In this document: positions 25,501 to 35,402 of the stretch, in pieces
How positions within the stretch are numbered: position 1 is the first letter of the stretch
Layout: every line of letters starts with the position of its first letter
Source of the DNA: Nitrosotalea sp.
GTDB lineage: Archaea > Thermoproteota > Nitrososphaeria > Nitrososphaerales > Nitrosopumilaceae
Length of the DNA: 64,000 nucleotides
Assembly (NCBI GenBank): GCA_036278495.1
Contig: DASUKX010000013.1
Location: 3,955-67,954 of the forward strand
Direction of reading: 5' to 3'
Made by a program: the position numbers and the translations under genes
The notes under the pieces: model-generated
Seen by the model: only the letters and a program-made list of their open reading frames with translations
Told to the model about the DNA's origin: nothing
Database searches by the model: none

Positions 25501-25626
25501 AATGGCGTGACCCTGTATAGGCAAAAGCATTCTCTTGCCATTCGTACAAACACATTGTACTTGACTATGTACCGTTTTTCGCAGGGTCACGCAAATTCAT
25601 TTGTCATAATTTGCATCTTTCCGCAT
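25501..25626 (-). ncRNA. Candidate structured RNA with leaderless 9-codon ORF (element A)
   Basis: ORF MRKDANYDK* 25626-25597; 11-bp stem GCGTGACCCTG/CAGGGTCACGC (25592-25505) enclosing two hairpins; TTAAATA 22 nt upstream of ATG; paralogous to 33979-34104. Confidence 0.7.
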
Positions 25627-33033: not shown

Positions 33034-33777
33034 TTATTTAGTAATGACACCGCCGTCTACAGGTAAAATCGCGCCTGTAATCCAGGATGAATCATCTGAA
33101 ACAAGATAAAGTATTGCCTTTGCAACATCTTCTGGCATTCCTATTCTTCCAATTGGATGTTCTGCTATTGCCATTGCTCTATCAACTTCATTTTCAAGAT
33201 ATGGCTTTGTCATGTCGGTTTCCACAATTCCGGGACAGACACAATTTACACGTATTTTATACTTGGCATATTCTATTGCCCATGCCTTTGTGAGCATAAT
33301 CAGTGCTGCCTTTGAAGCAGTATATCCGTCTGCTTCAAAATTTTCAAATGATTTCAGACCAGCATCTGATGACACATTTACGATGCAACCATTTGTTTTC
33401 ATCAAATGAGGTATTGCAGCCTTTGTAAAACGAAACTGTCCAGTTAAATTTATGTCAATTATGTCATTCCATTCTTCTTCAGAAATCTCATGCAGAGGTT
33501 TTACTTTGGGAAAAATACCTGCATTATTTACAAGGATATCAATTTTGCCAAAAATCTCTAAAGTATTTTTTACAACATTTTCTACATCTGTATTCTTTCT
33601 AATGTCACCAGAAATTGCTATTGTGTTTTTTATTTCCCTTGCAGTATTATCAAGACTTGCCTTGTCCTTTGATGTAATCACTACATTTGCTCCATGCTGT
33701 GCAAGTAGTATTGCTGTAGATTTTCCAATTCCTCTGCTGCCTCCTGTGACAATTGCAACCTTACCTGAAAGTTTCAT
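33034..33777 (-). CDS. Short-chain dehydrogenase/reductase (FabG-like)
   Basis: TGGSRGIG, NNAG, YTASK, VDGG. Confidence 0.93.
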   Translation of the reverse strand: MKLSGKVAIVTGGSRGIGKSTAILLAQHGANVVITSKDKASLDNTAREIKNTIAISGDIRKNTDVENVVKNTLEIFGKIDILVNNAGIFPKVKPLHEISEEEWNDIIDINLTGQFRFTKAAIPHLMKTNGCIVNVSSDAGLKSFENFEADGYTASKAALIMLTKAWAIEYAKYKIRVNCVCPGIVETDMTKPYLENEVDRAMAIAEHPIGRIGMPEDVAKAILYLVSDDSSWITGAILPVDGGVITK

Positions 33778-33978
33778 CCATTTCTGATTTAATCATGTGC
33801 CAGATTAGTTTGTCGAAGATCAAAAACTGAATTTATCAAAATCTTCAAAAAAACATGTTATGATGATCTGATGATCATAGTTTCTGCCTGTTTTTATTGA
33901 AATATTTTATTAAAATATTTTATAAACATGAAAAAATATGTATAAAATAATAAATACAATGATGTATTATAATTAATA

Positions 33979-34104
33979 ATGCAGAAAGATGTAAAATCTA
34001 CTGCTTAAGAGAGCGTGGCTCCGTAGACGTAAATTGTGAATCCCACTTGGGTGGGATTGGAAGAGGTAATCTCTGTTTGTCTACGAACAAGGGCCACGCC
34101 ATTA
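33979..34104 (+). ncRNA. Candidate structured RNA with leaderless 9-codon ORF (element B)
   Basis: ORF MQKDVKSTA* 33979-34008; stems GCGTGGCTC/GGGCCACGC and CGTAGAC/GTCTACG enclosing two hairpins; ATAAATA 22 nt upstream of ATG; paralogous to 25501-25626. Confidence 0.7.
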
Positions 34105-34144
34105 ATTTCAAAATACTGAAAAGTAAAATTAATTTTTTAAAAAT

Positions 34145-35059
34145 TTAAAGCTTGAGGGATTCCTTCAATCCCTTGTATCTATTTCTAATTGTGACCTCAG
34201 TTACTCCTGCAGCTTGGGCAACATCTTTTTGCGTCTTGTTTTCTCCATTCATAACACACGACAAGTATAGCGCAGCAGCCGCAAGTCCCATTGGATCCTT
34301 TCCAGCAGAAATCTCAATTTCAGCTGCATCTTTTAGAATCTGTAAAGCTCTTCTCTTTGTCTTCTCACTCAAGCCTGCTTTACTTGCAATTCTTGCAACA
34401 CATTTTATCGGATCAACAACTGGCATTTTTAAATCAAGTTCTCGTAACAACAATCTGTAACATCTGGCTACATCCTTTCGTTTGATGTTAATTCCATTTG
34501 CAACATCAGTAAGTGTTCTTGGAGTTTCAGTATCTCTACATGCTGCATATAGTGCAGCAGCAACAAGTCCTGGAATTGATCTGCCCCTAACAAGACCCTT
34601 GTCAAGTGCTTTTCTGTAAATGTAAGCGGTTTTTTCAATTACTGCATCCGATAATGCAAGTTTGTCTTTTAATCTGTCAAGTTCACTGAAAGCCTGTCTA
34701 AAGTTTCTGTCTACTGGTTCATGAACTTGACTTCTACTATCCCAAGTTCTCAGTCTTTCTATTGTGCTTTTCATTGACGCAGAAAGTGGTTTTCCTGATG
34801 CATCTTTGTCAGCAGGGCCAATTATTGTTGCAAGTCCCATATCGTGCATTGCAAGTGAAGTAGGAGTTCCGGTTCTACTTCGATCCTCATGCTCTTCTTT
34901 AGAAAATGATCTCCATTCTGGACCAGATTCTTCTACACGTTCAGTAAGTACAAAACCGCAACCACCACAAAACATTTCTCCTGTAGTGTTATCAGTTACC
35001 ATTGGACCTTTTCCACAACGAGGACAGCGTCCACCAGAACCAAAAGATTCACGAGTCAT
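34145..35059 (-). CDS. tfb: Transcription initiation factor IIB
   Basis: CPRC/CGGC Zn ribbon, GPEWRSF, two cyclin repeats, GVTEVTIRNRYK. Confidence 0.97.
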   Translation of the reverse strand: MTRESFGSGGRCPRCGKGPMVTDNTTGEMFCGGCGFVLTERVEESGPEWRSFSKEEHEDRSRTGTPTSLAMHDMGLATIIGPADKDASGKPLSASMKSTIERLRTWDSRSQVHEPVDRNFRQAFSELDRLKDKLALSDAVIEKTAYIYRKALDKGLVRGRSIPGLVAAALYAACRDTETPRTLTDVANGINIKRKDVARCYRLLLRELDLKMPVVDPIKCVARIASKAGLSEKTKRRALQILKDAAEIEISAGKDPMGLAAAALYLSCVMNGENKTQKDVAQAAGVTEVTIRNRYKGLKESLKL

Positions 35060-35402
35060 ATAATATCTTATAAGAATTTCGATTAACATAAATAAAAAGG
35101 TTTAACTATAAGTATTTGTTCAATGAAATTGTTATTTTATAGCTATATTGTATAGAAATTATTCATTATACTCATTTAATATCAAAATATTACAATTTGT
35201 ATATTGTAATCTGACAAAGCAATTTATTTTTTTTGGGATAGTAACTATGAGACAAGATCAAATTTGATCTTCTGAAATGATATTTTTTAAATAATTTTTT
35301 AATTTTTTAAATAATTATTTTTCAAAATTTTTTCAGAATTGTTTTTGTGGACTTAAGCAAAACCTTAAATACATTTGTTTTGAAGAACCCGCATTAAATA
35401 AA

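What the first reader, a model, noticed from the sequence alone, without database searches (positions are those of the whole stretch)
34013..34104. Element B: acceptor-stem mimic (7 bp + G + CCA) without a T-arm
Seen: GTGGCTC/GGGCCAC forms exactly 7 bp before a bulge and is followed by G-C-C-A; copy A reads GTGACCC/GGGTCAC-G-CCA likewise. The upstream GC can pair with and mask the GC of GCCA. Inner helix CGTAGAC/GTCTACG; hairpins AATCCCAC-TTGG-GTGGGATT and AGAG-GTAAT-CTCT. No TTCRA loop is present, so it is not a tRNA. Speculative inference: processing could expose an aminoacylatable end on an RNA that also carries a mini-ORF, loosely recalling tmRNA, which archaea are not known to have.
Basis: inference. 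Interest (0 to 1): 0.7.

Follow-up and report, generated by a model that had tools for sequence, protein, structure and literature searches.

The report
Archaeal micro-ORF RNA, not tRNA mimic
This is a conserved, uncatalogued small-RNA gene of one family of ammonia-oxidising archaea, in which a nine-codon reading frame runs into a predicted rod-shaped fold that likely acts on the ribosome reading it; the tRNA-like CCA end first noticed is not conserved.

Summary
The helices are real (fold z -4.2, covariation in homologues), but they are the 3' domain of a larger stand-alone gene, 33979-34100(+): TATA box, predicted leaderless 9-codon ORF, stop codon, 4 nt, then a three-way-junction stem ending in GCC and a U-rich tail. 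A covariance model finds it in 78 of 79 genomes of the family (Nitrosopumilaceae; 1-4 copies) and in 0 of 70 other genomes of the class. Frame and stop position are conserved (171 of 175 copies; all three stops), the peptide is not (pN/pS about 1.2). The acceptor-mimic idea largely fails: CCA in 43 of 175, unbroken 7-bp stem in 102 of 171, no T-arm, no SmpB, no G3-U70. It is not fully excluded, because this genome's tRNAs mostly get CCA after transcription and the C after the stem is nearly invariant. Best reading (inferred, about 0.4): the frame brings a ribosome against the stem, which sits at the mRNA entry port when the stop codon is read, and holds or slows it. No Rfam match; not found in my literature searches. 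The scan reported this family before on other genomes.

The parts
33979..34100 (+). Whole predicted RNA, copy B (start codon to the conserved unpaired C)
   Evidence: Covariance model match 123.5 bits; homologues in 78 of 79 family genomes; G-U pairs in the closing stem fix the + strand
33950..33956 (+). TATA box, 29 nt before the ATG; implies a leaderless transcript (inferred)
   Evidence: TATA-to-start distance 28-29 nt in 164 of 171 copies; RNA-run contigs X12 and X13 begin at 33975 with no loose end (one study, weak)
33979..34008 (+). Nine-codon ORF MQKDVKSTA plus TAA
   Evidence: ORF of 8-10 codons in 171 of 175 copies, 9 codons in 160; 62 of 62 against a shuffle mean of 3.7
33981..34004 (+). 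Predicted hairpin P0 formed by the ORF itself
   Evidence: ORFs fold better than synonymous recodings in 96% of 91 distinct sequences
34009..34012 (+). 4-nt spacer between stop codon and stem
   Evidence: 3-5 nt in 169 of 171 ORF-bearing copies
34013..34099 (+). Structured domain closed by 9-bp P1a (34013-34021 with 34091-34099)
   Evidence: 99.5% of cells paired, 7 of 9 pairs with two-sided changes in 61 distinct rows
34022..34090 (+). P1b (34022-34028 with 34079-34085) and 3' bulge (34086-34090)
34039..34058 (+). P2, hairpin of variable sequence and length
34062..34074 (+). P3, conserved short hairpin with a G-N-R-W-U loop (AAUG loop in A-type copies)
   Evidence: Loop counts; pairs
34100..34108 (+). 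Nearly invariant unpaired C (34100), variable next base, U-rich tail (likely terminator)
   Evidence: C in 62 of 62 and 174 of 175; T fraction 0.6-0.8 at most of +2 to +11
25504..25626 (-). Paralogue, copy A: ORF MRKDANYDK plus TGA (25626-25597), 11-bp closing stem from 25592, TATA at 25655-25649
   Evidence: (75.6 bits)
33034..33777 (-). Divergent upstream neighbour, short-chain dehydrogenase (context only)
   Evidence: Pfam adh_short_C2
34145..35089 (-). Convergent downstream neighbour, transcription factor B (context only)
   Evidence: Pfam TFIIB and zinc ribbon

Best explanation
Element B is the predicted three-way-junction 3' domain of a stand-alone small-RNA gene conserved across its archaeal family, whose predicted leaderless nine-codon frame likely exists to bring a ribosome up against the stem, which would then hold or slow that ribosome at or just before the stop codon. 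Shown by comparison: own TATA box, fixed start codon, open frame, stop codon 3-5 nt before the stem, covarying helices, U-rich tail, no fixed neighbour on the same strand. Inferred: transcription from the AUG; translation; that the peptide is a by-product; that the 21-23 bp stack ending in the P3 loop contacts the ribosome near the mRNA entry port; that the purpose is to park or tune ribosomes. The ORF's own hairpin (P0) would set how often a ribosome loads. About 0.9 that it is a transcribed, translated RNA gene; about 0.4 for this mechanism.
For: Frame kept, peptide not: 171 of 175 copies have an 8-10 codon ORF, stops TAA 117, TAG 29, TGA 25, 91 different peptides; no internal in-frame stop in 57 of 57 against 37 and 22 in the other frames (the in-frame count follows from the ORF rule, its shuffle null is); pN/pS about 1.2, and 27 copies of MPKDIIPID share one nucleotide sequence while their promoter spacers come in 22 versions. 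Geometry: with the stop in the A site the stem starts at +10 (49), +11 (87) or +12 (24) of 160; the bacterial mRNA channel holds 11 nt downstream of +1 and stem-loops 11-12 nt downstream hinder A-site binding (PMC7282821, passages); length and structure rather than stability matter (PMC8861025, abstract). Predicted stack from stem base to P3 loop is 21-23 bp in 151 of 171 although A and B types build it differently. Neighbours vary and mostly lie on the other strand.
Against: No direct evidence of translation or ribosome binding. The geometry is from E. coli ribosomes; mammalian channels cover 15-17 nt (PMC13517186, passages), so an archaeal ribosome may simply unwind the stem and terminate normally. 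Most mRNA structures do not slow ribosomes (PMC7282821). No complementarity to rRNA above chance (9.45 vs 9.36 nt). No partner protein identified; two eRF1_3-domain genes of release-factor and pelota size are present in 5 of 5 genomes, so ordinary rescue seems in place. The copies in genus g6 (L088, L089) keep the fold but have no stop before the stem. Expression evidence is weak.
Confidence: 0.4

Rival explanations
1. Translation-coupled switch: the ribosome passes through, melts P0 and the first pairs of P1, and so sets the stability or fold of the RNA; the RNA reports translation capacity and acts on some other protein or RNA.
For: Same frame and spacing data; ORF held in a hairpin; terminal GCG/CGC pairs and the next C nearly invariant, as a recognition site would be; A-type copies show possible alternative pairings (by inspection).
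Against: No target found: no antisense match above 13 nt in the own genome; no Ro60/TROVE (0 of 5); does not by itself explain the constant 21-23 bp stack.
Confidence: 0.25
2. Micro-mRNA for a functional 9-residue peptide, with a 3' fold that only protects the message.
For: Length fixed at 9 codons in 160 of 175; some peptides recur within a paralogue group (MPKDIIPID 27 times).
Against: pN/pS about 1.2; no synonymous variation among the 27 identical peptides; no residue after Met is conserved; the 3' domain is more elaborate than a protective hairpin.
Confidence: 0.1
3. One reading: a tRNA-like 3' end is processed, completed to CCA and aminoacylated, either as 7 bp + G + CC(A) after the outer GC is unzipped (a terminating ribosome could unzip 1-3 nt) or as 9 bp + C discriminator.
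For: G-C-C end nearly invariant; stem + one unpaired base + U-rich tail resembles local tRNA genes, only 4 of 30 of which encode CCA; first pair G-C and G before CC are constant in the 7-bp register.
Against: A76 in 43 of 175; 7-bp stem broken in 69 of 171; TTCRA in 12 of 175 and no D/T elbow; 21-23 bp rather than 12 bp from loop to end; no G3-U70; His identity needs G-1, present in 7 of 171, Thg1 in 0 of 5; C discriminator is disfavoured by an archaeal class I CCA enzyme (PMC4477674, section 22); RNA-run contigs run 29 and 58 nt past 34110 (unstranded, may be the convergent tfb tail).
Confidence: 0.07
4. Cis element (terminator or antisense regulator) for the convergent neighbour gene.
For: Most copies abut the 3' end of a gene on the other strand, some overlapping it by a few bases.
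Against: Neighbours are unrelated between lineages (tfb, aroA, a 145-aa membrane protein, others); G-U pairs favour the strand with its own promoter; the ORF would have no role.
Confidence: 0.05

Closest known systems
tmRNA (SsrA) with SmpB
   Same: One RNA with a short ORF and a terminal stem; peptide of about ten residues.
   Different: ORF comes first and has its own start codon; no T-arm, no G3-U70, CCA not conserved, SmpB in 0 of 5 genomes, no ARAGORN or Rfam match.
Ribosome-pausing mRNA stem-loops (E. coli dnaX and HIV frameshift stem-loops; stop-codon readthrough elements)
   Same: Stem placed about at the mRNA entry port when the last codon or stop is decoded (PMC7282821 passages, PMC13517186 passages).
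   Different: Here there is no downstream frame to shift or read into; all three stop codons occur; it is a free-standing gene.
Archaeal ribosome-associated ncRNAs (Haloferax rancRNA_s194, Hts4)
   Same: Intergenic archaeal small RNAs that act on ribosomes (PMC8938821, passages; PMC12482152, abstract).
   Different: No sequence or structure link shown; those are not described in the passages read as loading ribosomes through a conserved ORF of their own.
Leader-peptide attenuators (trpL/hisL/ermC type; recalled)
   Same: Short ORF directly followed by a structure; translation matters more than the peptide.
   Different: No regulated gene downstream on the same strand in most loci; no run of regulatory codons.
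Dual-function sRNAs (SgrS/SgrT, SR1/SR1P; recalled)
   Same: Small RNA with a small ORF.
   Different: Their peptides are conserved and functional; here pN/pS is about 1.2 and no antisense target was found.

Membership tests
tRNA / tRNA-like acceptor mimic | Unbroken 7-bp acceptor stem | tested here: not met
   102 of 171 copies; met in copy B itself
tRNA / tRNA-like acceptor mimic | Encoded or added 3' CCA | tested here: inconclusive
   Encoded in 43 of 175; local tRNA genes mostly lack it too (4 of 30); addition after transcription cannot be seen in DNA
tRNA / tRNA-like acceptor mimic | T-arm and 12-bp acceptor/T stack | tested here: not met
   TTCRA anywhere in 12 of 175; predicted stack 21-23 bp
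tRNA / tRNA-like acceptor mimic | Aminoacylation | not testable with these tools
   Needs periodate or acid-urea assay
tmRNA | G3-U70 alanine identity | tested here: not met
   9-bp register G-C 171, G-U 3 of 175; 7-bp register G-U 19 of 175
tmRNA | SmpB partner | tested here: not met
   0 of 5 genomes, 10 of 14 controls ring
tmRNA | Internal resume codon without start codon | tested here: not met
   ATG 164, GTG 6, TTG 1 at a fixed distance from TATA
SRP RNA Alu domain (split) | Host SRP RNA lacking its Alu part | tested here: not met
   Full-length RF01857 match in 5 of 5 genomes
Y RNA | Ro60/TROVE partner | tested here: not met
   0 of 5 genomes
Leader-peptide attenuator / riboswitch | Regulated gene downstream on the same strand | tested here: not met
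   Downstream gene convergent in most of 64 loci and of several unrelated families
H/ACA or C/D guide RNA | ACA or C/D boxes, K-turn, rRNA complementarity | tested here: not met
   No such boxes in alignments (by inspection); rRNA complementarity at chance level; no Rfam hit
Ribosome-associated ncRNA | Co-sediments with ribosomes and alters translation | not testable with these tools
   Needs gradients and ribosome profiling
Dual-function sRNA | Peptide under purifying selection | tested here: not met
   pN/pS about 1.2 on 112 single-base codon changes

The most novel reading that the evidence does not exclude
A new class of ribosome-parking RNA: a dedicated micro-mRNA that loads a ribosome through a throw-away nine-codon frame and locks it at the stop codon with a two-turn RNA rod, giving these slow-growing ammonia oxidisers an RNA-based way to store or ration ribosomes. 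In its boldest form (about 0.05) the terminating ribosome unzips the outer GC and exposes a G-C-C end that is completed to CCA and charged, an archaeal counterpart of tmRNA.
Probability: 0.3. Interest if true: 0.92.

Novelty: categorically new. Interest (0 to 1): 0.72.

Why it matters
Nitrosopumilaceae are abundant nitrifiers in oceans, fresh water and soil (own knowledge), and an RNA kept in 78 of 79 searched genomes, often in three paralogues, in genomes of 1-2 Mb is likely part of their core regulation. Its design (frame conserved, peptide free, stem at a fixed distance from the stop) fits no family I tested. If it acts on ribosomes it would be a new way for an RNA to control translation in archaea, and the fixed geometry makes it directly testable by toeprinting and cryo-EM. 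The result also retires the CCA-mimic headline for this locus.

Tried and rejected
Rfam: no match at gathering score in the window, only chance hits at E up to 10, 0 hits in 6 named homologue loci. Other families: model R1 0 of 126 non-family genomes of the order; R2 no hit better than E 0.3 in 38 non-family genomes and 0 of 70 in the class sample; the promoter-ORF pattern hit 70 of 73 family genomes and 28 of 227 others, of which the 18 hits examined (7, 11) lacked the fold; aroC neighbourhoods of 5 non-family genomes hold no copy. Viruses: 0 hits for two patterns, 2 hits for a third that lie in coding regions and do not score. Partners not found: SmpB, TROVE, Thg1, HPF/RaiA, each 0 of 5. rRNA and genome-wide antisense searches at chance level. 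Pairwise covariation inside the ORF gave no single register across paralogues. Expression: of 4 RNA runs laid, 3 gave one contig each, 1 none; contigs cannot show strand, level or ends; 21 runs listed, none holding half of the words. The sigma-70 scan is not apt for archaea and was not used. Papers not held: Walker 2010 genome paper and one metatranscriptome paper. PMC3840354 and PMC5069720 passages and PMC5737381 main-text search gave nothing on this RNA.

Full report
Observation. The predicted fold of 34005-34112 is a 9-bp closing stem (34013-34021 with 34091-34099), a 5-nt 3' bulge, a 7-bp helix and a three-way junction with two hairpins; -39.7 kcal/mol, z -4.24. ARAGORN and Rfam find only tRNA-Pro elsewhere in the window. 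Copy A lies at 25626-25504 on the minus strand; a model search finds these two copies and no more in the own genome, which is 75% complete.

Setting. Element B lies between a divergent short-chain dehydrogenase gene and a convergent tfb gene. Named records that carry the same element are mostly Nitrosopumilus, Nitrosarchaeum and Nitrosotenuis (80 of 120 rows were shown with titles), so I take the window's family to be Nitrosopumilaceae.

Distribution. BLAST-type searches gave the first homologues. Model R1 matched 22 of 23 family genomes and 0 of 126 others in the order. Model R2 matched 78 of 79 family genomes, 1-4 copies each, and 0 of 70 others in the class sample; the missing genome G058 has a weak, degenerate copy (E 6e-4). 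An independent pattern (TATA, start, 8 codons, stop, GCG) hit 70 of 73 family genomes; the 18 hits outside the family that I folded were chance. Of 120 loci from the all-species scan, 116 scored with R2; the three with bacterial or Asgard titles did not. No viral carrier was found.

Structure. On 61 distinct rows, 90% of cells pair, 23 of 27 pairs show two-sided changes, no shuffle of 500 reaches this and slid controls fall to 32-54%; the alignment was fitted to the model, so it leans that way, and kin are not independent. A second set of 96 rows, selected by a pattern that fixes P1b and P3, agrees for P1a and P2. G-U pairs place the RNA on the strand that carries the promoter. The predicted stack from the base of P1 to the P3 loop is 21-23 bp in 151 of 171 copies; A-type copies reach 18-21 bp with a different internal build.

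The ORF. From 191 model hits, 4 were skipped as too near a locus end and duplicates removed, leaving 175. In 171 there is an ORF of 8-10 codons (9 in 160) whose stop lies 3-5 nt before the stem in 169; starts are ATG 164, GTG 6, TTG 1; stops TAA 117, TAG 29, TGA 25. Of the four failures, L082 and L083 were mis-anchored by my script and do have the ORF, L164 was mis-parsed and not resolved, and L088 has no stop; these four were dropped. The same rule found an ORF in 62 of 62 real leaders against a mean of 3.7 (maximum 11) in 2000 shuffles; the model includes this region, which biases towards it. The TATA box is 28-29 nt before the start in 164 of 171, also the two largest bins for 610 long ORFs of the genome; leaderless messages, some with GUG, are common in some archaea (PMC4983044, passages). 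The peptide is not under selection: 91 different peptides, pN/pS about 1.2 on a spanning-tree count, and 27 copies of one peptide share a single nucleotide sequence. The ORF folds into a hairpin more stably than synonymous recodings in 96% of 91 sequences. So the constraints are frame, length and RNA fold.

The acceptor-mimic test. The 7-bp stem is unbroken in 102 of 171, with CCA in 41. There is no T-arm, no constant 3:70 pair, no SmpB and no tmRNA call. Against a clean rejection: only 4 of 30 parsed tRNA genes encode CCA (5 more predictions were not parsed and a few rows are off by one base), and the C after the stem is present in 174 of 175 and predicted unpaired (0.83). Read as a discriminator it would resemble tRNA-His, which here has C73 and an encoded G-1, but the element has G at -1 in 7 of 171, Thg1 was not found, and C73 is disfavoured by the A. 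fulgidus CCA enzyme (PMC4477674, abstract and section 22). The invariant C remains unexplained.

Expression. In two RNA runs of one study, short contigs (195 and 166 nt) begin at 33975, 4 nt before the ATG, and run 58 and 29 nt past 34110; a third run's contig extends 200 nt upstream; the fourth gave nothing. This is a weak hint of a transcript starting near the AUG, no more; a longer stretch with flanking genes could not be compared.

Context. In 64 loci the neighbours fall into many unrelated groups and mostly lie on the other strand on both sides (mechanical ORF calls, some spurious). It is therefore not a leader. SRP RNA is full length, TROVE and HPF/RaiA were not found, two eRF1_3-domain genes are present, and complementarity to rRNA or to the genome is at chance level.

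Mechanism. With the stop codon in the A site the stem begins at +10 to +12. In E. coli the channel holds 11 nt downstream of +1, and stem-loops at 11-12 nt can hinder A-site binding (PMC7282821, passages), depending on length and structure (PMC8861025, abstract); mammalian channels are longer (PMC13517186, passages). Either way the ribosome meets the rod in the last one to three codons. I therefore think it most likely (0.4) that the RNA loads a ribosome and holds or slows it; next, that translation switches the RNA's stability or fold (0.25); then peptide message (0.1), charged tRNA-like end (0.07), cis element (0.05). Every step after 'conserved gene with a conserved frame' is inference.

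Novelty. No Rfam 15 family matches. Seven topical paper searches (listings and abstract starts seen) and three on mechanism showed no description; PMC5737381 has no mention of these archaea in its main text (supplements not read). The N. maritimus genome paper and marine small-RNA surveys (recalled) could not be read and their supplements may list it as a candidate. The scan's earlier notes describe the same family on other genomes; I had reached that reading before seeing them (note) and they are not counted as support. What this report adds is the direct test of the CCA idea, the absence of peptide selection, and the stop-to-stem and rod-length geometry.

Noticed in passing
L088:1501-1635, L089:1501-1635 (G058, G318, genus g6): GC-rich, degenerate copies keep the ORF hairpin and the domain but have no stop codon before the stem and no GCC end; the only lineage seen to lose these traits.
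   Followed up: partly
L044:1490-1623 and related loci L036-L043, L085-L087: A-type copies sit antisense between aroA and aroC-like genes; in 5 non-family genomes the aroC neighbourhood has no copy. Gene names are read from the protein sequences, not from a family search.
   Followed up: partly
window 25504-25626 (-): In A-type copies a GAAAA stretch after P1 could pair with the 3' strand of P3, and the ORF end could pair with the first bases of P1: possible alternative folds (by inspection).
   Followed up: no
L165 (record titled Bathyarchaeota), L160 and L212 (titled Nitrososphaeraceae): Strong copies in records whose titles name other groups; L165 and L160 are nearly identical to each other and of the family's type, so likely binning or labelling issues.
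   Followed up: no
G000 genome: Only 4 of 30 parsed tRNA genes encode CCA; tRNA-His has an encoded G-1; tRNA-Lys and tRNA-Ser(GCT) each appear twice with the same sequence on different contigs (C1/C95, C16/C68), perhaps assembly duplication.
   Followed up: partly
window 34153-34175: A 9-pair hairpin at the very end of tfb, next to the element's tail.
   Followed up: no
G027:C1:577667-577888: A third, weak eRF1_3-like match below the Pfam cut-off in one Nitrosopumilaceae genome.
   Followed up: no
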